The notes under the pieces: generated by a model | Told to the model about the DNA's origin: nothing | Seen by the model: only the letters and a program-made list of their open reading frames with translations | The model's database searches: none | Translations under genes and position numbers: made by a program | Source of the DNA: Cyanidioschyzon merolae | Taxonomy: Eukaryota | Length of the DNA stretch: 64,000 nt | Assembly: GCA_000091205.1 (NCBI GenBank) | Contig: AP006487.2 | Direction: 5' to 3' (one strand) | Shown here: positions 5 to 56,205 of the stretch, one piece after another | Position numbering within the stretch: position 1 is the first letter of the stretch | Layout of the letters: each line of letters begins with the position of its first letter

Positions 5-653
5 TTGCAGCTCATGACCTCTGTGCTGGAGGTTGTCGGACTTGCGCTGCACTGTGCTGGCCCAGAGTCTAGTCTGAGCGACATCGCTGGACCTGAGGCA
101 ATGCCAGGCATTCTGCGAAGCCTGGCTCGGGATCTGTTGGGACTGTTTGCGACCCCGTTGCTCAAGCGAATCTGTGCATTCAGCAACGCAGGTGTATCGG
201 CACACGTGGTGCATCAGGCACTTGGCGCCTGGCACAAAGCGATTGCTGCGAGTTTCGAACACTGGCTCTCCTGGGACTCGGACACGCGCTCGGAAACGCA
301 TACGGATGTGGCGGCAACGTTCGTCGGGATTAGTTTGACGCTGGAAGAGGCGCTGAGTGGCCTCCAGCCTCCGAAAGCAGCAGCATCGACGTTCACTGAG
401 CCTCTGTCGACGACACCGGTGTTGGACGCGAACGCTGCTGCTGCGCTGGTCACGATTTGTCGCTCCTGTCGCACCTTTTGGTACCAGGTGATGGCAAGCG
501 ACGCTTTAGCGACCACGAAGGACGCGGAAATGACCGCAGCGCGGCATCCGCAAACCGACGGAACGGGCGCGAGTGGCGCTGCGGTCGCTGCTGATGAAGC
601 GCTCCATCGTATGGCGAGCGTTGCAGTTGCGATTGCAGGTGCAGTTGCACCAC

Positions 654-688
<35 letters not shown>

Positions 689-2623
689 CAGCAAAACACT
701 CCAACCGAGACGCGACGATCCCTCTACGCTGCGCAGTGCGCCCTGATCGAGATGCTCGTACCGCTACCGCTTACGCTGAACGCAATGGATGCACCGGTTC
801 ACCTCTCGAAATGGAACTGCCAACCGGAACATCGCGTGAACAAAATCACTGGACAGCTCGTGAGGTATTTCCAAGCATCCACGACATCGCTTGCCCGCTT
901 CGAGCAACAAACAGCCGTATGGATCACCGACGCGAGCGCCGATGGCGAAGCAGCGCTTCGTGCAATCGCACTAGCGACCTTGACCTATGCACTACAGATG
1001 AGCACTGCGGTCGCGGTACAGGTTGCAGGTGAGGCGGTACCCGCGATATCGACACCAGGCGAGCGTGTGCTTGCCAACAGGGACGCAAGCTCATCTTCAC
1101 ATCGACATCCACAGGTGCAGGTGCAGGCGAATCGATTCGCCCACATGATGATGATTGGACAGGCGAGTGCGATGGCGCGACTCGGACTCTGTGCAGCTGC
1201 ACTCGGTGAGGATGCGGTGATTGGGCACGAGGGTTCAAGTGTGACACATGTGTCGCTTGCCGTCCGCAACCTTTATCTGTTTGAACAGCATTTGTCGCTT
1301 TTTGTGCAACTGGCAGTGAGCGCTGCGAGGCAGGGCACCACGATCCGCCTGTTGCCGAGTTTGCTGGAGGCACTGCACGCTTGGGTGAGGCAGGGTGTCG
1401 ACTCAGGGGCGTTGCTGTTTCCAGTGGGGGTTTCTTTGGCGCAGCGATCCGGCAACATATCGCCGCTTCTCCAACGACGAGCGGTGCTGGTGCGTCGCCT
1501 CATTATGTTCGCTGCGCTTCTCGCGCTTCAGCTACCGTCTGGTGTTGCGACTGCGGCGCCGTCGTGGCGAGCGCTTGTCGAGATCGCGCTCCAACTGGGT
1601 AGCCTCTGGTTAGCGAGCCGATCCCTGATGCATACCGAGCATGCGCTGACGACGCTCCAGATCGGTATCTGGTATGGGCGTTTGCTGTGTGCGCTTCCCG
1701 CAGCGCTCTACGCGGAGCAGTCGGCCCTGGAGGCCATGCGTCACTCGTTTGTGCTCCAGTGTGTCGAGCTGCTTCCGCACCAAGCAGGTGCGGTGCATGA
1801 ACCCGACACTGCGACTCGTGGCGACGTAGCAGGCATCGCAGGCGCGGTGACGGTAGGCACAGCGCCCTGGGATGCAACCCGGTCTGCCGCCGATGCCGTG
1901 CTGACCACGTCGTTGCCGCGCTGGCATCGAAACTGCGAGCACCCCGAGTCGCCTGCGGGTACCCCACAGGCCCTGAATGGATCGCATGCGGCGCCAGGGC
2001 CGAACGATAACCGCATCCAGTCGTTCCTGCTGTGTCGTCTCGAGCTTTTACGCATCATGCTTGAACTGAATATGCACGAGAAGGTGCCCGGAGTCAGCGG
2101 TTGGAGCGATCCGGTACCCGGAGGCGACCCCATTCGTACCAGCCCACTGGCGCAGTTCATTGCCGGCAGTGCTGGCAGCACAGCGCTTCCCGCACCTCCA
2201 CGGATACGTGCCGAGCATCTATCGCTGGGACTTTTGCGGCTCGCCAGCGAATGCATCACTGCGGAACGCGCTCAGCGCGGGGCTAGTCATCGAAATGCGG
2301 CTGCGGGACCGCGCTGGGCGCTGGAGCGCCAGCAGCAACTAGAAGCGATGCGCTACCGCGAGGTGCTCGAGCGAACGCTCTGGTTCCTGTTAGCGATTTT
2401 TGAGCCGTCACCTGCAGGCGTTGCAGTACCATGGCAGGTTGCCTCGCAGCGAACACGTCACTGGATAGACTGGCTGTACCAGGAACTGGAAACGCATCGA
2501 GATGATGCACGTTGGTTACTTCGGCGACTGCTGGCGCGACGACTGCGCCAGTGGATCCCCGGTGCTCCCGCTCCGACGGTGCGTTCGGCAGGGACGCGCT
2601 CGCCACCGGTCGTTAGAGCATGA
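5..2623 (+). CDS. C-terminal 872 aa of a large low-complexity protein of unknown function; 5-prime end runs off the window
   Basis: Continuous 2.6-kb ORF that is open at the window edge; the first codon of the ORF track is TTG, not a real start. Contains (GCA)n poly-Ala and poly-Gln codon runs. No domain I can recognise. Confidence 0.4.
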
Positions 2624-2842: not shown

Positions 2843-4636
2843 TTATGGAGACGACATCGTAAAGTTGGCTTTGGCGCCCTGCCCAGAAAACCACGGTCCC
2901 AATGCCTGCTGCAACTCCGACGGAGTCGACAATCGCAGATCAAACTTATCCCAGGTAATCATTTCGTACAGCTGAATATAGCGCCGGCTGAGTTCGGTTA
3001 CGAGCTCGAGCGGTGCTTCTGGGAGCTTCTCGTCCTTGTAGGGATCGCAATGATCGCGGTACCAGAGCCTGAGGATCTCTTTGTCGATATTTTCAGGTTC
3101 TTTGCCGCTGGCGATACGCTCTTCATAGGACGTGGCGAGCCAGTAGCGACTCGAGTCGGGTGTATGGATCTCGTCGATCAAACAAATCTGACCGTCTGCA
3201 TCGCGTCCAAACTCGTACTTTGTATCCACTAGGATCAGGCCGTGCTCCGAGGCAACTTGTTGGCCGTACTCGAAGAGTCGCAACGCGTACGCTGCGCAGG
3301 CGTCAAAGTCGACCGCGCTCATGAGACCGCGGTCGATGATTTCCTGACGAGAGATGAGGGCATCGCCGATGTCCTCCTTGGTTGTTGGGGTCACCAAATT
3401 CATCCAGAGTTTTTGGTTTTTGTGAAGATTGTCGGGGAGCTTAATACCACAGTATTCCCGAACGCCTCGCTCGTAGTTCTTCCACAGGGATGTCGATGTG
3501 GAGCCCGTTGCATATCCTCGGACAACGAACTCAATCGGAAACGGATCACAGCGCTTGGCGATTGTCACATTGGGATGTGGTACAGCGATCAGGTGATTGG
3601 GCACGATGTGTTCGGTGCGGCGGAACCACCACGCCGATACCAAGTTAAGCACTGCACCCTTGAAGGGCACAGCAGCCAGCACTCGGTCGAATGCCGATTG
3701 ACGGTCTGTGGTTACGAGAATCATGTGCTTGGCAGCGTCCGAGTAGAACTGATCTCGAACCTTGCCTTGCTTCTTTCGCCAGGTACCTGCATGCTGCTGG
3801 ACCAGCGCAGACAGCACTCCATCCGTCGAGACCAGCACGTTGTTTTCGCGTGCTGCAGCCTGGATATCCGCAAGGTAGGCGCTGGTCGCGACCTCCGCGT
3901 CATCGACGTACAGCCGATCGCGATTCGCTTTCTGGAACGCCCGAACCCGGTCTCGCACGAGCGGATCGTGAATGCCCAGAATCTTCGCAGCTGTTAGGGC
4001 TGCATTGCCGGGGTCCAGAGAGACCACCGGCGCAATGCCACCCGGCATACGCAGGCTCGAGAAGATGTCAGCACCGCCAAAGGCATCCGACGGCGGCGGA
4101 CAGGCGATCACGGGCGACGCCACCGACCCGTCGAGTAGCCCCGAGAGTGCGTTCGAGCGACCAGCGACCGAGATGTATACTTTGGGTCGAGGATCGGCCT
4201 CGAGTCGACCGACAACCTCCAATAGCCGAGTAGGCACCTTGTGGGCAGAGAGCACGTGCATCTCCGTTGCCAGGCCGAAGCGATGGCAGGCTGCGGCGAT
4301 CTGATCACAGTGTTTTTTGTCGGCCTTGGATCCCATGAGAATCGGCACAAGTGGCGTCAGACGACCCTGTGCGCTATGATCGCCTATCGAATTGTTCCCA
4401 GAAGACGTCACAGGCGCAGTCAAGTCCATCGTAGAGCAATTCAGGGTTCGCAACACTCGCGGAGGCGCGAGTCGTCGGCTTCCTAGTCGTGCTGGAGCAC
4501 CGTTCGCTGTGCGACAGGTGCCTCCAAACTGATTCTTCCCAGATGATACGTGATGAAAGCAAGTGATTGTGTTTGAATGAAACGATGAGAAACGCAGTCC
4601 CAGTGGACTGCTTGTCGACGTTACGAATCCAAACAT
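2843..4636 (-). CDS. Bifunctional purine-biosynthesis enzyme: class II AIR carboxylase (PurE-like) N-terminal domain fused to SAICAR synthetase (PurC-like) C-terminal domain. Has an N-terminal organelle-targeting-like extension.
   Basis: The translation has PurE hallmarks (ILMGSKAD...SAHKVP...VAGRSNALSG...SLRMPGGIAP) followed by SAICAR synthetase hallmarks (LILVDTKYEFG...LIDEIHTPDSSRYW). The ORF is open from 4954. In-frame ATGs lie at 4636 (MFGFVTSTSSPLGLRFSS..., Ser/Thr-rich with Phe at +2, transit-peptide-like) and at 4429 (MDLTAP, just before the PurE domain). Start choice is uncertain. Confidence 0.8.
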   Translation of the reverse strand: MFGFVTSTSSPLGLRFSSFHSNTITCFHHVSSGKNQFGGTCRTANGAPARLGSRRLAPPRVLRTLNCSTMDLTAPVTSSGNNSIGDHSAQGRLTPLVPILMGSKADKKHCDQIAAACHRFGLATEMHVLSAHKVPTRLLEVVGRLEADPRPKVYISVAGRSNALSGLLDGSVASPVIACPPPSDAFGGADIFSSLRMPGGIAPVVSLDPGNAALTAAKILGIHDPLVRDRVRAFQKANRDRLYVDDAEVATSAYLADIQAAARENNVLVSTDGVLSALVQQHAGTWRKKQGKVRDQFYSDAAKHMILVTTDRQSAFDRVLAAVPFKGAVLNLVSAWWFRRTEHIVPNHLIAVPHPNVTIAKRCDPFPIEFVVRGYATGSTSTSLWKNYERGVREYCGIKLPDNLHKNQKLWMNLVTPTTKEDIGDALISRQEIIDRGLMSAVDFDACAAYALRLFEYGQQVASEHGLILVDTKYEFGRDADGQICLIDEIHTPDSSRYWLATSYEERIASGKEPENIDKEILRLWYRDHCDPYKDEKLPEAPLELVTELSRRYIQLYEMITWDKFDLRLSTPSELQQALGPWFSGQGAKANFTMSSP

Positions 4637-4914
4637 GGAATAGTGAATTCGAATCAGAGGATGCCTCGAACAAGCACTCGTCGAAAGCGAATCGGACCGT
4701 GAGAACTTCTCAGCACAGCACACAAAGCACAGTTGTTCCGTTCTGTTTCGTATAACGTGCCTCAACACCGAAACACACCCTGGTTCTACGAATAAAACGC
4801 ACAAGCGAGGCAAGCCCTGTACCAGTTTGGCAGGGGAACCGTCGACCCGCGCGGGACGATGCGTGGCGCCGAGGATGGAGGCGGCGGCGACGCCCCCCGT
4901 CGGATGCAGAGGGC

Positions 4915-5105
4915 GCCCATTCACCCGCCCATTCGCCGGCCCATTCCGGCCCATTCACCCGCCCACCCCGCCCATTCGCCCGCCATTCACCGCCTCGACG
5001 GGCGCTTCATGCGTGCTGCCATCGCCGCCTCGACGGGCGCTTCATGCGTGCAGCCATCGCCGCCTCGATCTTTCGCTTCATGCGTGCAGCCATCGTTTCC
5101 CGAAT
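4915..5105. repeat. Compound minisatellite: about 8 copies of a ~10-bp unit (gcccattcRcc) followed by about 2.5 copies of a ~33-bp unit (cgcctcgacgggcgcttcatgcgtgcWgccatcg)
   Basis: Direct tandem repetition is visible in the sequence. It lies immediately 5-prime of the PurE/PurC gene on the minus strand. Confidence 0.7.
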
Positions 5106-7214: not shown

Positions 7215-8560
7215 GACCATGGATACTAGATCCTGGGATGGATATTGCTGTTCGGGAAAGCGTCCATTAGTCTTCACTCTACCTCCGAATTCCATGACCC
7301 ATACTTCCCCTCGGATGTACTGGTCGTTTCGTACGTTCCATTGTGCACCGAGCGCATGCGATGGGCGTCTACGCTAGCGAATGTACTGCTGGGGCGGATG
7401 CAGCACGGACAGAGAACGGCTTGGCCATGCCATTCAGGCCGTCCACTCGAGGCGCAGTGCCTAGGGCGCGGAGTAGGAACTCATCCTCAACCTGGGAGCC
7501 AGCAAGCTGCGCAGACAGACCTACTGCCCGTGACAGTGCGGAGCGATTTGCTCGGATGATCCGGCGACCGGTGGAATACCTGGATGTAGCCTAATCACGA
7601 CTAGTCCAGGAAGAAAGTGCCTCGCGGGCGAGTTGCTCAGGTCGCAACCCCTGTATCCGCCGCGGGAGGCAGCACGAAGCACTTGCCTGGCACACTCGTC
7701 CGGCTCGTGGGACGCTCCACCTGGAAGGTAAACTTGCAGGAATGTGGAAAATTTTGCCCCCTTTTACCGTTTCTCGTCCAGGGGAAAGAAACTGTTATCG
7801 AGTTGCTCGGTAGTGGGTATTTTCTGTCTTTCGGCACAGTTGCAACGAGTAAGCGGTTACTTTCTGGTCTTAGCACCTCGGATGCCTCGTCGAATCATTG
7901 AAGACCTGTCCTGGACGTCCGGCGATGTCCTCGTACTGGACAACATGGCGTTTCACCGTTGCCCTTAAGTTCGAGCAGCAGCTTCTTATTCCTCCTCCGT
8001 GCACTCGTTTGTTGAACCGTATTGAAGGAGTGTTATCTTTCGGGAAATATCATGATCGCCCGAGTAAGCGAATCGCTGAAACGTTCAGTACACGATGACA
8101 CTAAGGCACATGTCGTCTTTTTTCCGCAAGTCCTTCGTCCTCCGGTAAGGTCCTAACCCAAGCGCATAAACAAGTGCGATCATTCCCAATAATAAAGCAT
8201 CCAAGGGATAAGCCAGAACAGACACTCCAGAAAGTCGAAAATGAGAGAAGCCAGCGGAGCGCTCCGGCGATAGAAACCCACAGAGAGCTGACAGAGCAGT
8301 AAATGGCACAGAAGAAACCAGTCCGAGGAATCTCTGGTTTGGCGAGATCAACCAGAAGTAAAATACATATAGAGTTCGTGAACCGCGACTCCAACGCCGC
8401 CATCAATATCACGAGATGTGCATTCCGAAACGCGACACCTGTGAAGCTCACACGAGCGAACTTTGCGGGACACCCCCCTGAGGATCCAAATGAACACGGA
8501 TAAACTGAAACCGATAACCGTCAACCAGGCAAAAAACGACCGCGATGCATCCGCGCCCCC
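7215..8560 (+). mobile_element. Degraded, internally deleted copy (E1) of a Fanzor/TnpB-like element. Consists of the ~600-bp family-specific 5-prime repeat (repeat C, 7215-7800) plus the C-terminal RuvC-II/RuvC-III remnant.
   Basis: 7215-7800 aligns with 24690-25270 (for example tggtcgtttcgtacgttcc, gcaagctgcgcagacag, cccccttttac blocks). 8100-8503 encodes a remnant homologous to the C-terminus of the 27026-27706 ORF (KVRGLVAFV...RDFNAAVYI vs PVRGISGLA...RDSNAAINI). The 3-prime tail motif ctgaaaccgata... is shared with the other copies. Confidence 0.6.
8303..8503 (+). pseudogene. TnpB/Fanzor-like RuvC-III C-terminal fragment (part of E1)
   Basis: Translation ...IHIEFVNRDSNAAINITRCAFRNATPVKLTRANFAGHP matches the TnpB-family RuvC-III signature (RD-x-NAA-x-NI) and the equivalent region of the larger copies at 27480-27700 and 44843-45151. 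Confidence 0.6.
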
Positions 8561-8909
8561 CGAGTACCCATCTGTAGCCCGTCGACGTGAGACGCGCGCG
8601 ATCCGGACACGTCTCGTGAACGGATCGCGCGCGTGCATGCAGGTGCCGCTGCGCCACTCGCTCGCGGAACACCAACTGCTCCCTCGATCGGCGCTCGCGG
8701 GTGGAACGGCGCAGCGGCGCTGGGGCGCTCACCTGGCGGCCGTCGCACTCGACAGCACGCAGCGCTGCGATGCGTGCCGCATCCGGATCCGTGCGGCGGG
8801 TGAATTGCGCAGCGCGCTGTGTGTGCGCGTCGCCAAACGGCAAACGGGCAGGATCCTGTTTCTAGGAGTGCGGTATCGTCCATGCGCGTCGTGCTTTGAA
8901 AGCAGGCTC

Positions 8910-11687
8910 ATGTCCTACTACGACAGCACTTCAGGACAACATCAAGCGAATATACAAGGAAGGCAGTATCCCTCAGGGGGTTCGACTTTTACGGCGAGGC
9001 CGGCTTCTGGACGCCTTGCCAACTTTAAGACAAACTGGTTATCGTCGGGGAGTGGGCGCTTCCCGTTTTCTTCCGAGAGTCAAAACTCGACAGAAGGCGC
9101 GCAGTCGTCGAACTATCGCGGATATTCCCCTGACCAAACAGGGAGGATGCAGGCGGCGCCGGCGACTGGGTCGCGTTCCTGGTCCGGGCCCGTGAACGGC
9201 GCTGGGGGCAGCGGGGACGGCCTGCGGACTCCAGTTCGCGGCTATGGTAGCTACGGAGGCGCTGCTGCGGGTGCAGGTCCTTTTGGTGCTGCTTACACGA
9301 ATCCGTACGAGTCAACGTCGACGATAGCGTTTACGGGCCAGCCGCAGAGCGAGATGCACCTCATGATCGATGAAGCGACGCGTCCGGACTTGCCGCTTGA
9401 GCCGCCGTACCCGCAGTTTGACCCTATCATCGGACAAGTGCTGACGATGGTGCGTGGCGGAGAAATCACGGCGCGTGCTGTGAAAGACCGTCTGAAAGTG
9501 AAGAACGAGCGCACGCTGCTTCTGACGCTGGCGTTGCTCCAACGACTGATGGAGGAATGTCCAAACTTTTATATGCATATAGCAAACAAGCGTTTCTTTC
9601 GCCGAATGTGGCGGCTAGTTGTTCCCGACTACAAAAACTCTATGCGCGAGCGCTTCTACGCTACGTTCGATAAGGAAGCCCTCCAGCGCAAATACGCCAC
9701 TGGGGAGATCGACAAGCCAATCTACTACCCGGCGGTGGCCATGAAAGTGATGCAGCTGATCGAAGCCTGGGGCGAAGAATTTGAGCGTTTCCGCCCTTAC
9801 GATAGCAAGGGGCAGTTCTTTGTGAAGCGTTGGCGCAACAAGTCGCGCAAATACTCTTTCCCGCCTATGCCCGCACTTGAGGTGCCGGCTGTGTATCGGC
9901 CGGGCACATCAGAGCGTGCCATCGAACTCCGTCGTCAGCGTGAGTCTGGACAGAACCCGACCACGCCTGACTCTTTCTCAGGAAGCAGTCCTAGCACAAT
10001 GAAAGCGCGAGCTTCTGGCGCGGCGGCAGGCTCGGCAGCGCGGAACCCAACTAGACCGCGCTACGAGCTGCGGGATATCAGTGAAGCCGCTGATCTTGCC
10101 GCTGCGCTCATGGACTCCGCACCGGACGCCGGTACCGTCGCCAATGATGAGGACATAGCATCGCTGATCACGACCTGCAAGGCAATGCTTCGAGAGATGG
10201 AAAACATGGTGGCAAGCATGGATTCGGAAAAGAGTGTGGTAGAGGCGATTGCTGTGAATGAAAAATTGCTCCTGGTCATCAACCGGTTCGAAGATATTTG
10301 CTTGATGGATCCGAAAACAGTCCTGAATCGAGAAGCGGCTCGAGAGGCTTCCCGTACGAACAAGAAGCCAGCAACAGTGGATGCCGCAACCGAGGCCACG
10401 GATGTGGGCGCCATGCAGTCGCGCACTGGAGGTAAGCGCAAGACGGCTGGGTCGAGCGACGAGGAAGATTCGGACGGCTCCAGTGAGAGTGAAGACGCAG
10501 CAGGCGACGACGACGGCGTCGAGGATGATGAGCGCGTTCCAGCAAGCAACTCGAGTGGAGCGGGCCGGCGTGCGCGCGGCACAGGCGGCGCAGCAGCAGC
10601 AGCAGCAGCAGCGACGGCAACGGCGGCGGCGGCGGCGGAATCGAGCAGGTTTACAAAATCCAGCGCAGCGACAAAGGAGGACACACTGCTCTGGCTGAAT
10701 TCAGACGACGAGGATGACGAGGACGAGGCATTTGAGAAAGAGCGCTCGAGTGCGATTTCCGGACAGGGACGCGGCAGCGGAGCCTCTAGCTCCAGGAAGC
10801 ACAAACAGCCGGCGTTGCAGCCGCAACCAGTGCACAGCAGTCAAGCGAGCCGTACCCGAGCCGACACGGCGGCTACAGCGGCAGCGCAGCCGCCAGCGTA
10901 CTACATCGAGTCACCGCCCAGTACACAGTACGGATCTTACGCTTCGGCATCTTCCGCTGCGCAGAATGCCTACGGTGTGCCGCCCGGCTATCCGTACATG
11001 CACCCGGCGTATTACAACCAGGGGTATCCATACGCTGGTGCTGCCTGGAACCCGTACGGCTATCCGTATGCGGCGGCTTATGGGTACGGAGGCGCGGCGC
11101 CCCAGATGGGCAACGTTCCCAGTGGCCAAGCGCCACCCGGTGCGTCCATGATGTATGGCATGCCGTACGGCGCCTATCCTGGTGGAAATGCGTATGCGAT
11201 GTACGCGGCGGGAGATGCCGCGAACATGCCCGGAACCGCTTCAACGTCAGCGGCTCGGAACCCCTTTGAGTCCGATGGTGGCAATGAAGACGCGCAACAG
11301 GCTGCCGGGGCGTGGTCGAACGAAACCACGCGTCTGCCAGCAGTGGGTCACACGGCGCTGTTGTCGCTGACGGCGGCGGAGCCGTCAGCGTCGCATTCGG
11401 CCGACATGCCGGTACCGGCTGCAGCGGCTGCGGTGCCGCCACCAGTTGTGACGAGCCGTGGTGCGCTTGCTTTACAATCGCAATCGCGCACGTCACCGCG
11501 CGATTCGGGGCTGTTTGACGAGTTGTGGCAGGAAAAGGTATCGAGAACGGAGCAGGAATCGACGGCTCGAGCAGAGACACAAACCGGAGACGCGTCAGCA
11601 GCCCCGGATGGGCAGGGAGGCGTTGGTGCGAGCGCCACTGCGATCGCGCTGGACGGCAAAGTAAGTGAGAAAAATCCGTTTGAATGA
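8910..11687 (+). CDS. VHS-GAT domain adaptor protein (TOM1/GGA-like) with a long low-complexity tail (acidic, poly-Ala, Tyr/Gly/Pro-rich) and two NPF motifs
   Basis: After the first in-frame ATG at 8910 (MSYYDS), the region ...ITARAVKDRLKVKNERTLLLTLALLQRLMEECPNFYMHIANKRFF...KVMQLIEAWGEEFERF fits a VHS domain. ...DIASLITTCKAMLREMENMVASMDSEKSVVEAIAVNEKLLLVINRFEDI fits a GAT domain. NPFE motifs occur near the C-terminus, including the last 4 residues. The ORF track start 8463 lies in GC-rich upstream sequence without an ATG. Confidence 0.6.
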   Translation: MSYYDSTSGQHQANIQGRQYPSGGSTFTARPASGRLANFKTNWLSSGSGRFPFSSESQNSTEGAQSSNYRGYSPDQTGRMQAAPATGSRSWSGPVNGAGGSGDGLRTPVRGYGSYGGAAAGAGPFGAAYTNPYESTSTIAFTGQPQSEMHLMIDEATRPDLPLEPPYPQFDPIIGQVLTMVRGGEITARAVKDRLKVKNERTLLLTLALLQRLMEECPNFYMHIANKRFFRRMWRLVVPDYKNSMRERFYATFDKEALQRKYATGEIDKPIYYPAVAMKVMQLIEAWGEEFERFRPYDSKGQFFVKRWRNKSRKYSFPPMPALEVPAVYRPGTSERAIELRRQRESGQNPTTPDSFSGSSPSTMKARASGAAAGSAARNPTRPRYELRDISEAADLAAALMDSAPDAGTVANDEDIASLITTCKAMLREMENMVASMDSEKSVVEAIAVNEKLLLVINRFEDICLMDPKTVLNREAAREASRTNKKPATVDAATEATDVGAMQSRTGGKRKTAGSSDEEDSDGSSESEDAAGDDDGVEDDERVPASNSSGAGRRARGTGGAAAAAAAATATAAAAAESSRFTKSSAATKEDTLLWLNSDDEDDEDEAFEKERSSAISGQGRGSGASSSRKHKQPALQPQPVHSSQASRTRADTAATAAAQPPAYYIESPPSTQYGSYASASSAAQNAYGVPPGYPYMHPAYYNQGYPYAGAAWNPYGYPYAAAYGYGGAAPQMGNVPSGQAPPGASMMYGMPYGAYPGGNAYAMYAAGDAANMPGTASTSAARNPFESDGGNEDAQQAAGAWSNETTRLPAVGHTALLSLTAAEPSASHSADMPVPAAAAAVPPPVVTSRGALALQSQSRTSPRDSGLFDELWQEKVSRTEQESTARAETQTGDASAAPDGQGGVGASATAIALDGKVSEKNPFE

Positions 11688-16255: not shown

Positions 16256-19200
16256 ATGAGCACCGAAAAAAGCGATAGCTTTTCTGCTCAGGACGAAGGG
16301 ACGCACCCCACAGAGTCGCCCTGTGAGGAGACAAAGAAGCAGCGCCTCGTCATTCGTTACATCAAGCTGGAAAACTTCAAGTCATACGGAGGTCACGTCT
16401 GTATCGGTCCCCTGCATCGACAGTTCAACGCTACCGTCGGTCCCAATGGAAGCGGGAAATCCAACGTCATCGACGCTATCTTGTTCGTGTTCGGGAAGCG
16501 TGCGAAGCAAATGCGCTCCAACCGCGTAAGCGAGCTGATCCACCGCTCCGAGGCCTACCCGGATGCGGCTAGCGCGACCGTCACCATAGAGTTCGTTCAG
16601 ATCATTGATAAAGAGTACGCGAGTGAAAACGAACCAGATGAGGTGGTTCCCGGAAGCGGCTTCACCGTCACGCGAACAGCGGCGCGCAACAACACTTCTG
16701 CGTACTTGTTGAATGATGAGAGCATCACCTACACGGAGCTCCAACAGTTTCTTCGCAGCAAGGGCATCGATTTGGACAACAATCGTTTTCTCATTCTTCA
16801 AGGGGAGGTCGAGCAAATATCCCTTATGAAGCCGAAGGCTGTGAACCCGCACGATACGGGTCTCTTGGAGTACCTCGAAGACATCATCGGGTCGAACAAG
16901 CTGGTTGCACCCATTGAGGAGGCCATTCAAGAGCTCGAAACACTCACCGAAGAACGCACCGTACGCTTGAATCGCCTGAAGGCTGTCGATAAGGAGCGCG
17001 AAGCGCTCGAGGAAGCCAAGTTTGAAGCAGAGCAGTATCTCGTGTTGGAGCACGACATCTATGAGAAACGGCTGCAACTGCATGAACTTGACGCCAAAAA
17101 GCTAGAAGAGGCGAAGGCCGCTGACGAGGCGCAGTATAATCTTGCTAAGAAGCAGCTCGAGACGGAGCGCGACGAGTTCTCAGCGGCGGAAAAAGCTGTG
17201 CAGCATCTGGTCGAGCGACGGGATCAGACGAAACAGGCGCACACCGAGGTGGCGAAAGCTTTTGAGGCGGCTAAGGAGGCGTTTGCTGAGCTCGAGCGCC
17301 GCGACGTGCGTGTTCGCGAAGACTTCAAGCATTTAGCTGAGCGCGAGAAGAAGGCTGCCACCAACATTCGCAACGAAGAGCGTCGGCATGCGGAGCTGGA
17401 ACAGGCCCAACGGGCGTCTCGGGCTCGGCTGGGTGAGCTCCAGCAGGAACAGCCCAAACTAGAAACGGAGCTTGCGAACGCGGAGGCGGCCTTGCAACGC
17501 GTCTATGATTCCCTCCGAACCGAAACGACTGATTTACGGTCAGATATGGAGCGCAAACAGACGGAATTGCTACCTCTCCGCGAAAAAGCGGATGCTGCAC
17601 ACCAGCGACTCTCCGTAGCCCAGCAGCGCTTACAGTTGCTGGTCGCAAAGCAGGCTGCGCCCGAGCAGGACCGCGTAGACACGGAAAAGCTCATTCAGAC
17701 GCTGGAAAAGGAGCTCAGCGAGCTTGGTTCGCGCATTGCAAGCGAAATTGAACCCACAGCTGACGCGAAAACACGAGCACTTCGCGATGCACAAGTTCGG
17801 CTCGAAAACGCGCGGAAAGCTGAGGAAGAAGCTCGACAGCAGCTCAGTCGTCTCCGACGCCAGAACGAGGAAGCAAATGCGTCGCATGCCGCCAGCAGCG
17901 GTCGAAACCGAATGCTCGAGGCGCTGTGGAAAGCGTCACAGCGAGGCAGTATTCGTGGGTTCATTGGCCGTCTCGGTGACCTGGGCACTGTTCCGGACGC
18001 ATTTGTCGCTGCGTTAGAGGCCGCCGCTGGGTCAGCTCTCGATCATCTGGTCGTCGAGAACGTCGACGATGCCCAGGCGTGCATTGAAATGCTCCGTGAA
18101 AACAAGATGGGGCGCGCTACCTTCATTATCTTGGAGAAAATTCGTTACCTGCAGTCACAAATCGAGCAGAGCAAGTTTCCTGCTCCGGAGGGTGTCCCAC
18201 GCCTATTCGACTTGCTGGACATCTCGAACGCCGCCGGCCGGCTGCCGTTCTATTTCGTGCTCAGAAACACGTTGGTTGCTCGAGATCTGGAGCAAGCGAC
18301 ACGAATCGCGTTCCAGCCAACTCGGCGGAACAGGGTCGTCACTTTGTCGGGTCAGCTGATTGAAACATCCGGAACAATGTGCGGCGGCGGCGGCGGCGGC
18401 AGCAGCAGCAGCAGCGCAGCCTCGGGGCGTGGCACTTCGCGTTCAAACGTGAAGCAGTCGCGGACATGTGGTGGAAATGCCATTCAGGCGGCACCTCCGT
18501 CGGCAGAGGCGCTCGCGAAAGCGGAGGAATGCGCTGCAAAGGCCCTGGAAACGCTCACGGCTTGCGAACGCGAGCGAGATAGCCTTCTCGAACAGGCGCG
18601 GTCGGCGAATCAGGAATTAGAGCGCGCCCGCCTGGAGAAATCCTGTCTCGAACAGAGACTCCAGGATGCTAAGAATCGAATGAAATCCTTGAATACGCGG
18701 AGCAGTCAAGCTGTACTCGAGGTGGATGAGGCACGTGAGCTCGTTGAGCTGCAGGCAAGCATACCGCATCTTGAGCGTGAATGCGCGGAGCATGACGCCG
18801 CTGCCAGTGCGCTTGAAGCGCTCATTCGTGAACAGCAGGAGCGCATTTTGGCTATCGGCGGCGAGCGGTTGGTCCAGTCCCGCGATGCAGTCAAGAAACT
18901 GCAAGATGCGCTGCAGGCTATCGCAGACGAGATACGCAAGCTTGAAATCGCCCTTGAGTCGAATGAGAAAACGCTGGAGAAATCTTCCGAGGCAATTCGA
19001 CGTGCTCATCTAGAGCGACAAAAACTCGAAGAGCAACGTCAGCAGCGGGATGCGGAGCTGTGCGAACTCGAGCAACAAGCAGCGACTGTTTTGCAAGCGC
19101 AGCAAGAGCACGAGGCGCAAAAGAAAGCGCTGCAAAAGGATCTCCAGGAAATAGAGGCGGAGCTCACGAAGCATCAGCATGCGCTGCAGGGCTGGCGTCG

Positions 19201-20410
19201 CCACGAGCTTGACCTAACGAATCGCCTCGAGAAGCTTGCTAGGGAGCTCCAAGCGCTACAGTCGCAGATTCAGGAGCATCGCAGCCAGGCGGACGCGGCT
19301 CGCAAGTCCATGCTGGAGCTTGAGGAAAGCATGCCCCTGTTGTTTGTTCGAGATTCTGCCAGCAACGACGACAACGATGACGACGATGACAACGACGACG
19401 ACGACGATGATGATGATGATGATCATCGTAATGATGATGATGACCAGGGCGATGCAACCCGCAACGGCGAGCCGCGCATCACGGACGCTAGCTCAGAGTC
19501 TGGCACAGCAGAGAAGCAGACGCAGCGACGAGGGCGTCGAGGTCGGAGAAACGCTGGCTCGTCTGCGGCTAGCGCTGAGGCATCCATCGACCCCGCCGAG
19601 CGATTGCGTCTGGAAATTGCCGCTCTGGAGCGGAGCCTCGCGGAGCTGAAACCCAACCTCAGCGCTATTGAAGAGTACCAGAAGAAAGAGGACGAGTACC
19701 GCTCGCGAATGGCTGAGCTCGATGCCCTCACGGAGCGTCGAGACGCACGGCGGCGCGATCTTGATGACCTCCGAAAAAGGCGACTGGAGAGCTTCATGGC
19801 TGGCTTCGCCATCATCGCCACAAAGCTGAAGGAAATGTATCAAATGATCACCCTCGGGGGAGACGCCGAGCTGGAGCTTATCGACTCGCTGGATCCGTTT
19901 TCCGAGGGGATCGCGTTCACGGTACGACCGCCCAAAAAGACTTGGAAAAACATCGCCAACCTCTCCGGAGGCGAGAAGACGCTCTCCAGCCTAGCGCTGG
20001 TCTTTGCCCTGCATCACTACAAACCAACCCCTTTCTACGTCATGGATGAAATTGATGCTGCCCTGGACTTTAAGAACGTCAGTATTGTTGCACATTACAT
20101 TCGGGAACGTGCCCGTGACGCCCAGTTCTTCATCATATCACTGCGAAACGACATGTTCGAACTAGCCAGCCGTCTCGTGGGCATTTACAAGATTCATCAT
20201 ACAAGTTACAGTGTCGCGCTGGATCCAGGCGCTGTTGCCCTCAAGTCGGCCGGCGCCGCGGATGCCCCCGTCGACAAAGAGAACCAGCCCGTTGCATTCG
20301 TGGCGGATGCTGCGGCACCAGCTGCGGCCGTTGAGCGCAAGTCGGCGCTGGCTCTGTCGCAACGCTCCGTGGACGGTATAGAGACCCGAATGGATGTCGC
20401 ATTCACATAG
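16256..20410 (+). CDS. SMC4: Structural maintenance of chromosomes protein 4 (condensin SMC4), single exon, with poly-Gly/Ser and poly-Asp insertions
   Basis: N-terminal Walker A region NFKSYGGHVCIGPLHRQFNATVGPNGSGKSNVIDAILFVFGKRAKQMRSNRVSELIH. Hinge GFIGRLGDLGTV...MGRATFIILEKI. C-terminal signature LSGGEKTLSSLALVFALHHYKPTPFYVMDEIDAALDFKNVSIVAHYI...FIIISLRNDMFELASRLVGIYK. ATG at 16256. Confidence 0.9.
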   Translation: MSTEKSDSFSAQDEGTHPTESPCEETKKQRLVIRYIKLENFKSYGGHVCIGPLHRQFNATVGPNGSGKSNVIDAILFVFGKRAKQMRSNRVSELIHRSEAYPDAASATVTIEFVQIIDKEYASENEPDEVVPGSGFTVTRTAARNNTSAYLLNDESITYTELQQFLRSKGIDLDNNRFLILQGEVEQISLMKPKAVNPHDTGLLEYLEDIIGSNKLVAPIEEAIQELETLTEERTVRLNRLKAVDKEREALEEAKFEAEQYLVLEHDIYEKRLQLHELDAKKLEEAKAADEAQYNLAKKQLETERDEFSAAEKAVQHLVERRDQTKQAHTEVAKAFEAAKEAFAELERRDVRVREDFKHLAEREKKAATNIRNEERRHAELEQAQRASRARLGELQQEQPKLETELANAEAALQRVYDSLRTETTDLRSDMERKQTELLPLREKADAAHQRLSVAQQRLQLLVAKQAAPEQDRVDTEKLIQTLEKELSELGSRIASEIEPTADAKTRALRDAQVRLENARKAEEEARQQLSRLRRQNEEANASHAASSGRNRMLEALWKASQRGSIRGFIGRLGDLGTVPDAFVAALEAAAGSALDHLVVENVDDAQACIEMLRENKMGRATFIILEKIRYLQSQIEQSKFPAPEGVPRLFDLLDISNAAGRLPFYFVLRNTLVARDLEQATRIAFQPTRRNRVVTLSGQLIETSGTMCGGGGGGSSSSSAASGRGTSRSNVKQSRTCGGNAIQAAPPSAEALAKAEECAAKALETLTACERERDSLLEQARSANQELERARLEKSCLEQRLQDAKNRMKSLNTRSSQAVLEVDEARELVELQASIPHLERECAEHDAAASALEALIREQQERILAIGGERLVQSRDAVKKLQDALQAIADEIRKLEIALESNEKTLEKSSEAIRRAHLERQKLEEQRQQRDAELCELEQQAATVLQAQQEHEAQKKALQKDLQEIEAELTKHQHALQGWRRHELDLTNRLEKLARELQALQSQIQEHRSQADAARKSMLELEESMPLLFVRDSASNDDNDDDDDNDDDDDDDDDDHRNDDDDQGDATRNGEPRITDASSESGTAEKQTQRRGRRGRRNAGSSAASAEASIDPAERLRLEIAALERSLAELKPNLSAIEEYQKKEDEYRSRMAELDALTERRDARRRDLDDLRKRRLESFMAGFAIIATKLKEMYQMITLGGDAELELIDSLDPFSEGIAFTVRPPKKTWKNIANLSGGEKTLSSLALVFALHHYKPTPFYVMDEIDAALDFKNVSIVAHYIRERARDAQFFIISLRNDMFELASRLVGIYKIHHTSYSVALDPGAVALKSAGAADAPVDKENQPVAFVADAAAPAAAVERKSALALSQRSVDGIETRMDVAFT

Positions 20411-37605: not shown

Positions 37606-38908
37606 AGCATCATGGGCCGTCTTCGGATTTCTGGAGGCATCGGGGAAACAGGTTCGTCTCGGAATGAAAAATCACATAGCGTAAATTTATATCGTACTAT
37701 GGCAAAGCTTACCCCTTTCAGAAGAACCGCAGTCAGCGCAAAAGGCGCGCTACTTGCGAACGCCCAGCAGACTTTCAAGTTACCCTGGGCACACGCGTAC
37801 TGCGCTGGAGCTATTTTGCACAGTTTTCGTAAAGGATGTTTTACTGGAGTGTAAGACCGTTTACAAGGGCCAGCGATTCCCGATTGCGAGAATGATATCG
37901 GCACCGGGGAGAGCGTCACAAAAGGTTGCGCAGATCTAACGGCGTACTTCTCGGCTGCTGTGTGATCACAGCTTGGTCCAGGTAAGCTTGTTCTTCAGGT
38001 AGTGTCCTCGAAAGAGAGCTCTCGTTCCGAACTCGGAAAAGAAACAGTTTCTGTCAAGCACTGATTACCGTGATCGACGAATGCACCTGCCCCTGTCGCT
38101 TCACGCACCTCCAGGTTGTCTGTTCGCTGCCAGATGTGCGCCTTCATGGCAGTCTCAGAAACAGACAGACCTCCTTGGGGCAGGCTTCCGAGCAGCGCTC
38201 GCCAACGCCTGTCCTGTTGCCTGTCTCCGAATCGAGCCGAAACGCCGAAAGCCAAACGAGGCTCGCCTTCGAAACGCACAGGATTACGCCCGTACATCAT
38301 GCTTGTCAAGATCTGCCGCAACCTACACACAGACACCAGAAAGTTTTCCGCTTCGTGACGCCGCGAGTTGCGCGTTTGTCAACACCCCGACCCGAACGAA
38401 CCCGTTCCACACTGCGCACCTGAACAAGTCACCCGAAATCTGTTAAGCGTTGAACGAGCGTGCAGCAACCGGCACATACAACTCTCCTGCTGGTCTTGCA
38501 AACCGAAATGCAACGACCATAAAGCCGTCCAAACCAAGGAGCTGCGCGCACCACAGTTAAACTCCTCTACCGAACCTTCTAGGCTGTCCTGCTGCCAGTC
38601 GTGTTTTCCAGTTATTCCTCAGAACTCAAGTTACGTAGCTCTTACTCTACAAGATGCACATGCAAACGCACATGCTTTTATCGATTGGGGCCCTGATCGG
38701 CGACAACTGCGAGCAGGGTCACCACAAAGTGCTTGGCCCGACAATCTGGTCCAGTACCCGAACAACTGCAGGAGCGGAGGTGCGCAGGCGCGGCCGCCGC
38801 GATGGGGAGCTCATACTGCACTGGTAGCTGAAAGCTGTCCGCTTCCGCTTCCCTTGCTTTTTGTCGCTCCGGGGTGGCGTTAGCCAAGAGACTAGTTTAC
38901 GCTACACT

Positions 38909-40582
38909 ATGCACACAAACCTAGTTTTGTGGAGCGTTTGGCAGGATAGACCTCGGTTTGGCTTTAGAAGCGCCGCGAATTTTACTGGGAAAGTCGAGTT
39001 CGTACCGAAACGGAGAGTCTGCAAACAGGTTACAATGCAGCGACGCGGTTCCAGCTCCAGATCCCATGGGCGCCTCCGATGTGCCGAGAATGATCTTGCG
39101 TGGTATGCACGGGCACGGACAGTCTTTTACAACACACTGAGTAGGCGCAAGGAGCCTTTCGAGACGAGCTCGGCGGACGGCGTCGTTCGCTTCTACTCGT
39201 GCGGACCGACAGTTTACGACTATGCGCACATTGGCAACTTTCGTGCCTTTCTCACATATGATCTCGTCAAGCGCTGGCTAATGTTTTGTGGGTACAAGGT
39301 ACGTCATGTCATGAATATAACAGATGTCGACGACAAAATCATCCAGAGGTCTCAGCGGGAACAGCGTCGCGCGGAGGATATCACTCGACAATTCGCTGCG
39401 GAATTTTTCCAGGATCTCAAGGCCCTCAACATCATTCCAGCAGATGCGTATCCCTGTGCAACAGCGCACATTGATGATATGGCTGATCTGGTGAGGGAGC
39501 TCCTTTCGCGAGGCTTCGCATACAAACTAGGCGACTCTGTGTACTATTCGGTTGAGAGATTTGCCCGATACGGCACGCTGGCGCGAATAAATTTTGAGAG
39601 CTTGTTGTCTTCAAACGGTGAAGAAGAGGATGCAGGCCCACACACTGCTTTGAAACGAGATCCACGAGATTTTGTTCTCTGGAAAGGTCACAAGCCGGAT
39701 GACGGTGATGTCAAATGGGATACGCCTATTGGGTGCGGTCGGCCCGGCTGGCACACGGAATGTGCAGCAATGGCAATGAAGTATCTAGGCTCGAGCGTCG
39801 ATATCCATGCCGGAGGCTCAGATCTGGTGTTTCCGCATCATGAAAACGAAATCGCACAATGCGAAGCGGTAACCGGAACGATGTTCGCTCGATTCTGGAT
39901 CCATAACGGATTCGTGAATATCAATGGGGAGAAAATGAGCAAGAGCCTGGGGAACTATATCACTTTGCGTGATCTGGTCCGCGATCCGCTGGATGCTCGT
40001 GCGTTCCGCTACGCCGTTATCACATCCTTGTACCGAATGCCGCTGAATTTCACTGACGATACTCTGGGAGCAGCGGCAACGACACTTCGCCGACTGGATC
40101 TGTTCCGAAAGAGCATCATTGACTTGGAACGATCAGAAGCAAGCACACCGGGTCAAAAGGCTGATCAAGGACTGCGAGCGAGCTGTGAAGCATACCTGCG
40201 TGATTTTTGCGACCACATGGCGGATGATCTGAACACAGCTCGTGCTGCAGCGGTGATCTTCGAAGCGCTGCGGCATTTCGAAGCGCTCCGCCGCGATGCG
40301 CGATTACGCCCCGCAGACGCGAGTCTGATTCTCGGAATGCTTCGTGAAATGGACCGCGTTTTTGGTGTATTCTACGAACCGGAGCTCGCGCATTTGTCTG
40401 AAACCAGTGAACCAAGTTCGACCGGAATCCCACCCGAAGTCCTCGAACTTGCGCGACTTCGAGCAGATGCCCGTGCCCGAAGGGATTTTGCTATGGCAGA
40501 CAAGTTGAGGGAACAGTTGAGATTGTATGGCTTTGCGGTGCGAGATACCGCTCAAGGCCCCGAAATCACAAGACTCTCTTAA
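38909..40582 (+). CDS. Cysteine--tRNA ligase (cysteinyl-tRNA synthetase, class I)
   Basis: [13 protein letters not shown] (HIGH-type motif), ...[11 protein letters not shown]..., KMSKSLGN (KMSKS motif), and a CysRS-like anticodon-binding C-terminus. First in-frame ATG is at 38909. An N-terminal extension of ~70 aa may be a targeting sequence, or the true start may be the ATG at 39035. Confidence 0.88.
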
Positions 40583-50680: not shown

Positions 50681-50751
50681 TGCGCTAGCCGGGAATCGAA
50701 CCCGGGGCAACTGCTTGGAAGGCAATTATGTTACCATTACACCACTAGCGC
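50681..50751 (-). tRNA. tRNA-Gly (anticodon UCC)
   Basis: The reverse complement folds as a canonical cloverleaf: acceptor GCGCTAG/CTAGCGC + discriminator A; D-arm GTGT/ACAT with AATGGTA loop; anticodon stem ATTGC/GCAGT with loop CTTCCAA (anticodon TCC, U33, A37); T-arm CCGGG-TTCGATT-CCCGG. No encoded CCA, as expected for eukaryotes. Confidence 0.85.
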
Positions 50752-54783: not shown

Positions 54784-56205
54784 CTTTTCGAAAGGCACAA
54801 ATTATCTTCCTCCCCGAGGTGCAGCCGCACCGTCCATCACCAGGACGTACACACTCTCACCAGTGAACTCGGATTGAATGGTCCAGAGGATTGGCGGCGG
54901 ATGGCGGCCGCCGCACGGCTACTTCGCCGCGGCAGTCCGCCGCCGCACATGCTTGGAGTCGCTCGCGCGCCATGGCCGAATCGCATTCAGCTGAACTCTG
55001 TTCCTCTCCTTTTTAGAGAAGGAAATTGAAATCGATATGCAATGCATCCTATGGATCGGAGACGAATTGCCCCTAGGATGTATGTTTCACCGAATAGTGC
55101 AGGGATGATTGTATTTCTCTTTCAGGGCAATCATAATATAATTATCAGGTAGTTAAGGAACACTGGAAGAAAGAAAAAGATGCGCTGCCCGCCAAAAACC
55201 GATATTCTCAAACCGTGTTTGTGGGCAATGGTAGAAAAGGACCCGTTGAGCACTTTACGGAAAGCAAAGAGCGACGATAGTTGCCACCACGGGCGTCTCT
55301 GTTTCCCAACAGCTTGTTCGCTTGGTCCTGAAACCCCTAGGATACAGTCGCGAAAAAAGAGTCCTGGTTCACGCACGGCCATCTTCCATCTAAATCGCAA
55401 TAACAGCGTTCCTGAAACTCGGGGATCGGTATGCAGTACAGAGACGTTGATTTGTATTTTCAGTCGATGAGACTTGCCTCGGACCAAACGTTGGTACATA
55501 TTTGAGTATTCGCGGAGAGGGAGCCCGTTGTATGTACGATCGCTCTCGACGAGAACGAGGGCATCATCTATTCTAGCTGCGGTGGATTCATTTGGCGGCC
55601 GCCGTTTTGCTGGCACAGAGGGCTCGCACAACAGGACCAACCACTTTGTCCAACCATTGAAGACTCTTCCCTGCCGTCTGGCGACGTTCCCCTATCGGAA
55701 ATCGTGGGGTATAACCATTCCCCTGGGGTTCGAGTTTTCGAAGAATCTTTCGGGGTAGAGCTGTTTTTCATTCCTCCACACGCTCCAGGGTTGAAGCCCA
55801 TCTATGGAGTGTTTTCTATCGTGAAACGTTATGATCGCCTCACCGAGCGCATCGCTGCAGCTTTCTGTACACGGTGATACAGCGGCACATTCCGTCCTTC
55901 TTCTGCAAGTGCCTCTCACTCCGGAAAGATCCTCATCTAAGCGAATAAAGGAGAACGTTCATTTGATGAAATAAAAAATCCGAGGGAAAGGTACGGTCAT
56001 ATAAGTCAAGGATCCTGGAGGTACATGTCGTCGGCTGACAAAAGAAAATGAAAAATCCTCTTCTCGCCGACCATCGAGCGAAGAAGAAGAGGGGAGATAG
56101 ACCAGGAAAGGTGTTTGCCCTGCGGGACAAAAACTAGACTGTAGGGTCACTGACGGCACGAGTTCTAGGACTCCCTGAACAGCTAAATCCCATCAAAAGC
56201 AACAA

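What the first reader, a model, noticed from the sequence alone, without database searches (positions are those of the whole stretch)
2843..4636. PurE-PurC fusion with domain order opposite to metazoan PAICS, plus a transit-peptide-like N-terminus
One ORF encodes a class II (animal-type, SAHK-containing) AIR carboxylase domain followed by a microbial/plant-type SAICAR synthetase domain. Animal PAICS has the order SAICAR synthetase then AIR carboxylase; here the order is reversed and the PurC half looks like the fungal/plant/bacterial type. That suggests an independent fusion event. Upstream in-frame sequence (MFGFVTSTSSPLGLRFSSFHSN..., ATG at 4636) looks like a plastid/organelle presequence, consistent with plastid-localised purine synthesis in photosynthetic lineages.
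Basis: partly seen in the sequence, partly recalled or inferred. Interest (0 to 1): 0.5.

Follow-up and report, generated by a model that had tools for sequence, protein, structure and literature searches.

The report
Red-algal PurE–PurC purine enzyme gene
This is an ordinary nuclear gene of a hot-spring red alga for a two-step purine-synthesis enzyme (AIR carboxylase fused in front of SAICAR synthetase) with a plastid-type targeting peptide; the fusion arose separately from the animal one, but it is already annotated in other red algae.

Summary
Window 2843-4636 (- strand) is one uninterrupted 597-codon gene. It encodes a 93-residue disordered presequence, a class II PurE (AIR carboxylase; SAHK and AGRSNALSG motifs; closest solved structure Treponema denticola PurE), a short helical linker, and a long yeast/mycobacterial-type PurC.

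The start at ATG 4636 is supported. Strain variants carry an indel and non-synonymous changes only upstream of it. An 87%-identical relative has an in-frame stop just before its own MFSFVS start. Red-algal orthologues share the M-x-F-V N-terminal motif typical of red-algal and glaucophyte transit peptides. Homologues from non-photosynthetic protists such as Blastocystis lack the extension.

The fusion is independent of metazoan PAICS. PurC identity to a sponge PAICS is 29%, against 50-67% to bacterial enzymes, and PAICS splits off with 100% bootstrap. It also differs from prokaryotes, where purC always comes before class II purE.

It is not new. About 70 proteins with the same domain order exist, among them a Chondrus crispus protein explicitly named a fusion of these two enzymes, and others in Galdieria, Cyanidium, Porphyridium and Blastocystis. 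This is a new member of a known, little-discussed family. Plastid localisation and enzyme activities are inferred, not tested.

The parts
2843..4636 (-). Complete CDS of the bifunctional PurE(class II)-PurC protein, 597 codons plus a stop codon at 2843-2845
   Evidence: One uninterrupted ORF. Both Pfam domains lie in one frame. It is 100% identical to metagenome protein P0001 and 68% identical to the Cyanidium caldarium orthologue.
4358..4636 (-). N-terminal presequence (residues 1-93), starting MFGFVTSTSS; a putative plastid transit peptide
   Evidence: pLDDT is below 50 for residues 1-88. Composition is 27% Ser+Thr, 10% Arg+Lys and 2% Asp+Glu. The M-x(0-5)-F-[VIL] motif is shared with red-algal orthologues. 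Relative L084 starts MFSFVS after an in-frame stop. The extension is absent from Blastocystis and other protist homologues. The Phe motif is described in PMC2222254.
4427..4429 (-). Second in-frame ATG (Met70), 24 codons before the PurE core; either a relic of the ancestral start or an alternative start
   Evidence: 21 of 28 homologues with a presequence have a Met in the last 30 residues of the extension. Met frequency is 27/840 there against 6/1037 elsewhere in the presequence.
3875..4357 (-). Class II PurE (AIR carboxylase) domain, residues 94-254; SAHK at 4238-4249 and AGRSNALSG at 4139-4165
   Evidence: PF00731 E 2.5e-34. T. denticola PurE 3rg8 E 8e-44, aligned without gaps. Foldseek TM 0.94-0.95, rmsd 1.2 A, 48% identity.
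3779..3874 (-). Inter-domain linker (residues about 255-286), partly helical and variable in sequence and length among homologues
   Evidence: Alignment A1 columns about 280-320. The AlphaFold model shows helices 255-263 and 276-281.
2930..3778 (-). Long-type PurC (SAICAR synthetase) domain, residues 287-569, followed by a 28-residue C-terminal tail (2846-2929)
   Evidence: PF01259 E 1.9e-65. NF009251/PRK12607 scores 386.8, above the cutoff of 371. Foldseek matches M. abscessus and yeast PurC with TM about 0.8.
4637..4954 (-). Upstream in-frame ORF extension that is not coding (5' leader or promoter region)
   Evidence: Against strain variants L001 and L002, this stretch carries an indel of about 46 bp that removes ATG 4954, plus 7 substitutions (P0001 differs here at the amino-acid level). 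From ATG 4636 onward there are only 3-4 substitutions in 1794 bp, all silent because the protein is 100% identical. The stretch is not conserved in Cyanidium or Galdieria, and the relative has a stop codon here.
4914..5095 (.). Tandem repeats (periods 12/22 and 35) upstream of the gene, variable in copy number between strains
   Evidence: Tandem Repeats Finder; indel inside the array.

Best explanation
This is a nuclear gene of a cyanidiophycean red alga; the closest named relative is Cyanidium caldarium. It encodes a bifunctional enzyme for two consecutive steps of de novo purine synthesis. The N-terminal class II PurE domain carboxylates AIR directly with CO2 to give CAIR, without ATP and without PurK. 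The C-terminal long-type PurC domain ligates CAIR and aspartate, using ATP, to give SAICAR. Fusion keeps the two activities at a 1:1 ratio and probably allows CAIR to be handed over around a PurE oligomeric core, as in PAICS, but with PurC attached to the C-terminus of PurE rather than the N-terminus. A 93-residue presequence starting MFGFV most likely directs the protein into the plastid and is then removed. Shown here: the domain content, order and class, the start codon, orthology with annotated red-algal fusion proteins, and a separate origin from PAICS. Inferred: the catalytic activities, the oligomeric state and channelling, and the plastid localisation.
For: Domains and order. Class II assignment: SAHK and AGRSNALSG motifs, E 8e-44 to the characterised T. 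denticola AIR carboxylase against about 1e-12 for class I enzymes, and the class I equivalog model below its cutoff. The catalytic motifs of both halves are invariant across 57 E>C homologues. The AlphaFold model has pTM 0.78, is folded from residue 94 to 593 and is disordered from 1 to 88. The same architecture occurs in about 70 proteins, including transcript-derived ones (MMETSP P0007, Gracilaria changii Trinity P0034) and named red-algal proteins. Start codon. Transit-peptide motif and its restriction to the red-algal subclade: with literature. The neighbouring genes are eukaryotic (SMC, VHS/GAT, CysRS, WDR3), and synteny with a relative is conserved. Separate origin from PAICS.
Against: There is no biochemical, transcript or localisation evidence for this organism. 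No targeting predictor could be run, so a mitochondrial or dual location is not excluded. The single-domain NJ trees are poorly supported (bootstrap 15-47). The concatenated tree assumes that both halves share one history. Whether the genome lacks purK could not be checked from one window.
Confidence: 0.82

Rival explanations
1. The two halves are separate genes, and the single ORF is a read-through or an assembly artefact.
For: No transcript data exist for this organism. In prokaryotes purC and class II purE are often separate adjacent genes.
Against: The frame is continuous with no stop. The same E>C architecture is seen in about 70 independent sequences, including transcript-derived ORFs and two independent metagenome contigs with an identical protein. 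The helical region just after the PurE core (QKANRDRLYVDDAE) is conserved, and the model is folded continuously.
Confidence: 0.02
2. The protein starts at ATG 4954 (703 residues), and the MFGFV stretch is internal.
For: The ORF is open up to 4954. A metagenome gene caller produced a 694-residue model.
Against: ATG 4954 lies in a tandem repeat and is deleted in strain variants. The 4637-4954 stretch accumulates substitutions that change the predicted protein, whereas the CDS from 4636 has only silent changes. An 87%-identical relative has an in-frame stop 17 codons before its MFSFVS start. Orthologues start at the F motif.
Confidence: 0.03
3. The presequence targets mitochondria, or both organelles, or a second cytosolic isoform is made from Met70, rather than the protein being purely plastid-located.
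For: The composition (rich in Ser, Thr and Arg, poor in acidic residues) also fits mitochondrial presequences. A second in-frame Met is enriched just before the core in 21 of 28 homologues.
Against: The N-terminal Phe motif is the described hallmark of red-algal and glaucophyte plastid transit peptides. It is shared by most red-algal orthologues.
Confidence: 0.2
4. The E>C protein descends from a PAICS-like or bacterial PurC-PurE fusion by domain swapping (for example tandem duplication and trimming), not from a fusion of separate genes.
For: Both halves resemble the bacterial PurC-PurE protein P0101 (60% and 50% identity). In the concatenated tree the nearest neighbours of the E>C clade are mostly bacterial C>E proteins (bootstrap 75).
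Against: PAICS itself is excluded: its PurC is 29% identical and the split has 100% bootstrap. No intermediate C-E-C-E architecture was seen among the sequences examined. The trees cannot distinguish a swap from a de novo fusion.
Confidence: 0.15

Closest known systems
Red-algal PurE-PurC fusion proteins (e.g. Chondrus crispus XP_005715985.1 / R7QFE3; Cyanidium caldarium CDCA14G3779; Galdieria, Porphyridium and Gracilariopsis orthologues)
   Same: They share the domain order, the class II PurE, the long PurC and an N-terminal F-motif extension. Identity is 57-68% over 80-95% of the length, and they fall in the same well-supported clade (bootstrap 99).
   Different: This copy comes from an unnamed cyanidiophyte seen so far only in metagenomes. 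It has the longest presequence of the set (93 residues) and a slightly longer C-terminal tail.
Metazoan PAICS (PurC-PurE; PDB 2h31, 4ja0, 6yb8)
   Same: It catalyses the same two reactions and has a class II PurE domain (41-43% identity, rmsd 1.3 A). The concept of a bifunctional enzyme is the same.
   Different: The domain order is opposite. Its PurC belongs to a different, shorter subfamily (29% identity with many gaps). It has no presequence and a separate origin (100% bootstrap split).
Bacterial purC-purE(class II) gene pairs and PurC-PurE or PurQ-PurC-PurE fusions (Patescibacteria/Magasanikbacteria, Marinimicrobia, Spirochaetes, Myxococcota; operon example L003)
   Same: These are the closest relatives of both halves outside eukaryotes: PurC 50-67% identity and PurE 38-60%. 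They have the same class II motifs.
   Different: The order is always C then E: 50 of 80 loci have this order, and none has an adjacent E>C pair. The genes sit in purine operons and have no targeting sequence.
Treponema denticola PurE (stand-alone bacterial AIR carboxylase, PDB 3rg8)
   Same: It is the closest solved structure for the PurE half. The alignment has no gaps, identity is 48%, and both have SAHK and AGRSNALSG.
   Different: It is a stand-alone 159-residue protein.
Plant and fungal PurK-PurE (ADE2-type, class I) plus separate PurC
   Same: It belongs to the same pathway segment. Plant purine synthesis is organellar (general knowledge). The PurC half is of the same long type as yeast Ade1.
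   Different: Those lineages use the ATP-dependent PurK with a class I mutase. The window protein fails the class I equivalog cutoff and has no PurK domain.

Membership tests
Class II PurE (AIR carboxylase, EC 4.1.1.21) | PurE fold (Pfam AIRC) | tested here: met
   PF00731 E 2.5e-34. Foldseek TM 0.95 to 3rg8.
Class II PurE (AIR carboxylase, EC 4.1.1.21) | Class-specific loops: SAHK rather than SAHR, and AGRSN(A/G)L(S/G) rather than AGGAAHLPG. The motif definitions come from my own knowledge of the Kappock and Stubbe literature and are consistent with the sequences. | tested here: met
   SAHK is at residues 130-133 and AGRSNALSG at residues 158-166.
Class II PurE (AIR carboxylase, EC 4.1.1.21) | Closer to biochemically characterised class II enzymes than to class I mutases | tested here: met
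   E 8e-44 (T. denticola) and 1e-33 (human PAICS), against 5e-16 or weaker for class I. TIGR01162 scores below its cutoff.
Class II PurE (AIR carboxylase, EC 4.1.1.21) | Direct CO2-dependent carboxylation of AIR, with no requirement for PurK | not testable with these tools
   This needs an enzyme assay or complementation, and a whole-genome check for purK.
Long-type PurC (SAICAR synthetase, PRK12607 / yeast Ade1 type) | Scores above the curated equivalog cutoff | tested here: met
   NF009251 scores 386.8 against a cutoff of 371.
Long-type PurC (SAICAR synthetase, PRK12607 / yeast Ade1 type) | Conserved nucleotide and CAIR binding motifs (GKVRD, TTDRxSAFD, LVDTKxEFG, DExxTPDSSRxW) | tested here: met
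   These motifs are invariant in alignments A1 and A2. Assigning them to ligand binding rests on my own knowledge.
Eukaryotic E>C PurE-PurC fusion family (red algae, Blastocystis and other protists) | PurE N-terminal to PurC in one polypeptide | tested here: met
Eukaryotic E>C PurE-PurC fusion family (red algae, Blastocystis and other protists) | Groups with the other E>C proteins in a phylogeny | tested here: met
   In the concatenated NJ tree the 48-member E>C clade has bootstrap 80 and the red-algal subclade has bootstrap 99. The single-domain trees are weak.
Metazoan PAICS | PurC N-terminal to PurE, with a PAICS-type short PurC | tested here: not met
   The order is reversed. PurC is 29% identical with 35 gaps. 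Human PAICS 2h31 aligns only over its PurE part.
Red-algal/glaucophyte-type plastid transit peptide | Phenylalanine within the first few residues; hydroxylated and basic, poor in acidic residues; unstructured | tested here: met
   The sequence starts MFGFV. It has 27% Ser+Thr and 2% Asp+Glu, and pLDDT below 50. The motif is described in PMC2222254.
Red-algal/glaucophyte-type plastid transit peptide | Actual import into the plastid, and cleavage | not testable with these tools
   This needs localisation or import experiments. No targeting predictor was available.

The most novel reading that the evidence does not exclude
The E>C fusion arose once, from a bacterial-type purC / class II purE pair, in an ancestor shared by or exchanged between red algae and Blastocystis-like protists. 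It would then be a rare genomic marker of red-algal gene flow into stramenopile-like lineages. In red algae the conserved second Met just before the PurE core would give a cytosolic isoform alongside the plastid one, so that one gene serves two compartments.
Probability: 0.15. Interest if true: 0.45.

Novelty: new member of a known kind. Interest (0 to 1): 0.22.

Why it matters
The main value is for annotation. It fixes the gene model: start at 4636, one bifunctional product with a presequence. It also shows that red algae, unlike green plants and fungi, use the ATP-independent 'animal-type' AIR carboxylase. The comparison documents that PurE and PurC were fused more than once and in both orders: PAICS, bacterial PurC-PurE, this E>C family and a second small E>C group. 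That is a tidy example of convergent gene fusion of consecutive pathway steps. No paper on it turned up in the searched library. It does not open a new question by itself.

Tried and rejected
Literature searches for a description of the PurE-PurC order in algae or protists found nothing specific. Only database names document the fusion. The Tranchimand 2011 paper on T. denticola PurE could not be opened.

Single-domain NJ trees were too weakly supported (bootstrap 15-47) to name a sister group, so I do not rely on them. No ML tree program was available.

I first took P0028 to be Cyanidioschyzon merolae. The cluster look-up showed it is Chondrus crispus.

Cluster look-ups gave no organism names for the unnamed bacterial C>E group or for most Logan contigs.

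Three readings were considered and rejected. A bacterial contaminant is excluded because the neighbouring genes are eukaryotic. The longer 703-residue product is excluded. Descent from PAICS is excluded.

Full report
**What is in the sequence**

On the minus strand one ORF runs from 4954 to 2843 (703 codons). Pfam places an AIRC (PurE) domain, E 2.5e-34, in front of a SAICAR_synt (PurC) domain, E 1.9e-65, in the same frame.

NCBIfam puts the PurC half above the curated cutoff of the PRK12607 equivalog (386.8 against 371). The PurE half stays below the cutoff of the class I purE model TIGR01162 (124.5 against 149.6).

Against solved structures, the PurE half is closest to the biochemically characterised AIR carboxylase of Treponema denticola (3rg8, E 8e-44, aligned without gaps). 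Insect and human PAICS follow (E 6e-37 and 1e-33). Class I mutases reach only about 1e-12 to 5e-16. The PurC half is closest to Mycobacterium and yeast PurC. Human PAICS (2h31) matches only through its PurE part.

The class II loop motifs are present: SAHK at residues 130-133 (window 4238-4249) and AGRSNALSG at residues 158-166 (4139-4165).

**Context and organism**

The neighbouring ORFs encode eukaryotic proteins: an SMC protein, a VHS/GAT protein, cysteinyl-tRNA synthetase, a CCT-motif protein and WDR3/Utp12. The window is 50-61% G+C. The gene is thus nuclear and eukaryotic.

The protein is 100% identical to a product on two JGI metagenome contigs and 87% identical to one on a third. The best named relatives are Cyanidium caldarium (68%) and then Galdieria, Porphyridium, Chondrus and Gracilariopsis (57-62%). 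The source is most likely an unnamed cyanidiophycean red alga. Synteny with the 87% relative is kept, with the VHS/GAT gene on the same side.

**Gene model and start codon**

The in-frame stretch upstream of 4636 is not coding, for three reasons.
- Against the two near-identical strain contigs, 4637-4954 carries an indel of about 46 bp inside a tandem repeat, which removes ATG 4954, plus 7 substitutions. The predicted proteins differ there.
- From 4636 onward there are only 3-4 substitutions in 1794 bp. All are silent, since the proteins are identical.
- In the 87% relative an in-frame stop lies 17 codons upstream of an ATG that opens MFSFVSISTNT. This corresponds to the window's MFGFVTSTSS.

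The orthologues from Cyanidium (MFVSSF), Galdieria (MVAFVTSSS), Porphyridium (MAFVFGG), Chondrus (MPIAFIP) and Gracilariopsis (MPAFVTS) start in the same way.

**The presequence**

Residues 1-93 are rich in Ser, Thr and Arg and nearly free of acidic residues (27% Ser+Thr, 2% Asp+Glu). They are not conserved beyond the first few residues. The AlphaFold model predicts them to be disordered: pLDDT is below 50 for residues 1-88, whereas residues 94-593 fold with high confidence (pTM 0.78).

Most E>C homologues with an extension of 25 residues or more begin M-x(0-5)-F. A phenylalanine close to the N-terminus is the described hallmark of glaucophyte and red-algal plastid transit peptides (PMC2222254).

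In the concatenated tree the extension is confined to the red-algal subclade. The Blastocystis proteins and other protist homologues start directly at the PurE core; one of these lies on a contig with myosin and Sec16 genes. Plastid targeting is therefore the best reading. It remains an inference, because no predictor or experiment was available.

**Structure and function**

Foldseek matches the PurC half to M. abscessus and yeast SAICAR synthetase (TM about 0.8). It matches the PurE half to T. denticola PurE (TM 0.94-0.95, rmsd 1.2 A, 48% identity). PAICS aligns over the PurE part only. The catalytic motifs of both halves are invariant in 57 E>C sequences.

The most likely function is AIR + CO2 -> CAIR, without ATP and without PurK, followed by CAIR + Asp + ATP -> SAICAR. 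In PAICS the PurE domains form an octameric core and CAIR is thought to pass to PurC through a channel (PMC9376930 and PMC10484210). A similar assembly is plausible here, but PurC hangs from the other end of PurE, so the geometry must differ. This is inference.

**Is the fusion independent of PAICS?**

Yes.
- Against a sponge PAICS, the PurE halves are 41% identical. The PurC halves are only 29% identical, with 35 gaps.
- Against a bacterial PurC-PurE protein encoded in a purine operon, the values are 60% and 50%.
- Against many other bacteria, PurC identity reaches 60-67%.
- In a concatenated NJ tree (434 columns, 200 bootstraps) PAICS is split off with 100% support. 48 E>C sequences form a clade with 80% support, and the red-algal part of it has 99%. 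Two further E>C sequences (P0198, P0244) lie elsewhere, which points to yet another fusion.

The single-domain trees are weak and are not used.

Among the best 80 prokaryotic loci, 50 have purC followed by a class II purE. In 44 of these the two lie within 400 nt, and some are fused, occasionally with PurQ in front. None has an adjacent E>C pair. The eukaryotic order is thus not a simple fusion of the bacterial gene pair.

**Is it new?**

No. About 70 of the best 120 database hits have the same E>C architecture. They include transcript-derived ORFs, so the fusion is real in relatives. They also include a Chondrus crispus protein whose name states that it is a fusion of these two enzymes.

I found no paper that discusses the reversed order, so the family is known in annotation rather than studied.

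**Verdict**

The finding is real and correctly interpreted, but it is ordinary. It is a new member, from an unnamed cyanidiophyte, of an annotated family of red-algal PurE-PurC enzymes with a plastid-type presequence. Interest is low to moderate.

The points worth keeping are these:
- the corrected gene start;
- the contrast with the PurK plus class I PurE system of green plants;
- the repeated, order-independent fusion of these two pathway steps;
- a possible second initiation codon just before the mature protein.

Noticed in passing
window 4427-4429 (Met70 of the PurE-PurC protein) and homologues in alignment A2: A second in-frame Met lies 8-25 residues before the PurE core in 21 of 28 homologues with a presequence. 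Met frequency is 27/840 there against 6/1037 in the rest of the presequence (Fisher p 2e-5, but the sequences are related). In Chondrus the stretch 'MSAAPLKPLVP' resembles the Blastocystis start 'MSAPLVV'. It could be a relic of the ancestral start, or a second initiation site giving a cytosolic isoform.
   Followed up: partly
window 4914-5095: Tandem repeats (12/22-nt unit CGCCCATTCACC-like, and a 35-nt unit in 3.2 copies) lie just upstream of the gene. Copy number differs between the window and metagenome strain contigs L001 and L002 (an indel of about 46 bp).
   Followed up: partly
loci L004-L083 (GTDB genomes), proteins P0071, P0083, P0101: purC followed by a class II purE, as adjacent genes or as PurC-PurE fusions, is widespread in Marinimicrobia, Spirochaetes, Patescibacteria, Verrucomicrobia and Myxococcota. 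Magasanikbacteria even have PurQ-PurC-PurE triple fusions of about 890 residues. Class II PurE is clearly not an 'animal-type' rarity in bacteria.
   Followed up: partly
loci L007, L009, L012, L016, L017, L025, L026, L037, L061: Legionella and Coxiellaceae, which are intracellular parasites of protists, carry stand-alone PurC genes 60-65% identical to the red-algal PurC half. This is as close as any bacterium and hints at gene exchange between eukaryotes and these bacteria in one direction or the other.
   Followed up: no
proteins P0113/P0125 (ENA metagenome) and P0059 (JGI): Other architectures occur inside the E>C clade: a protein of about 924-954 residues with ATP-grasp (PurK-type) Pfam domains in front of PurE-PurC, and a peroxiredoxin (Redoxin/AhpC-TSA) domain fused in front of PurE-PurC.
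   Followed up: no
proteins P0198, P0211, P0244: A second small group of E>C PurE-PurC proteins sits far from the red-algal clade (bootstrap 98 in the PurE tree for their own group, together with the stand-alone P0161). This suggests that the E>C order arose more than once. Their organisms are unknown.
   Followed up: partly
protein P0131 (Myxococcota MAG, MFO0749263.1): This is a bacterial C>E fusion whose PurE domain (54% identical) fell inside the eukaryotic E>C cluster in the weakly supported PurE NJ tree.
   Followed up: no
window 5-2623 (+): An 872-codon ORF with no Pfam match converges on the PurE-PurC gene; their stop codons are 220 bp apart. It contains a CAG repeat (657-693) that encodes a poly-Ala/Gln run.
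   Followed up: no
window 8463-11687, 16256-20410, 38861-40582, 53092-54798, 56811-60167, 50681-50751: Other genes in the window are a VHS/GAT-domain protein, an SMC protein, cysteinyl-tRNA synthetase, a CCT-motif protein, a WDR3/Utp12-like WD40 protein and a tRNA-Gly(TCC). All long ORFs are uninterrupted, as expected for an intron-poor cyanidiophyte genome.
   Followed up: partly
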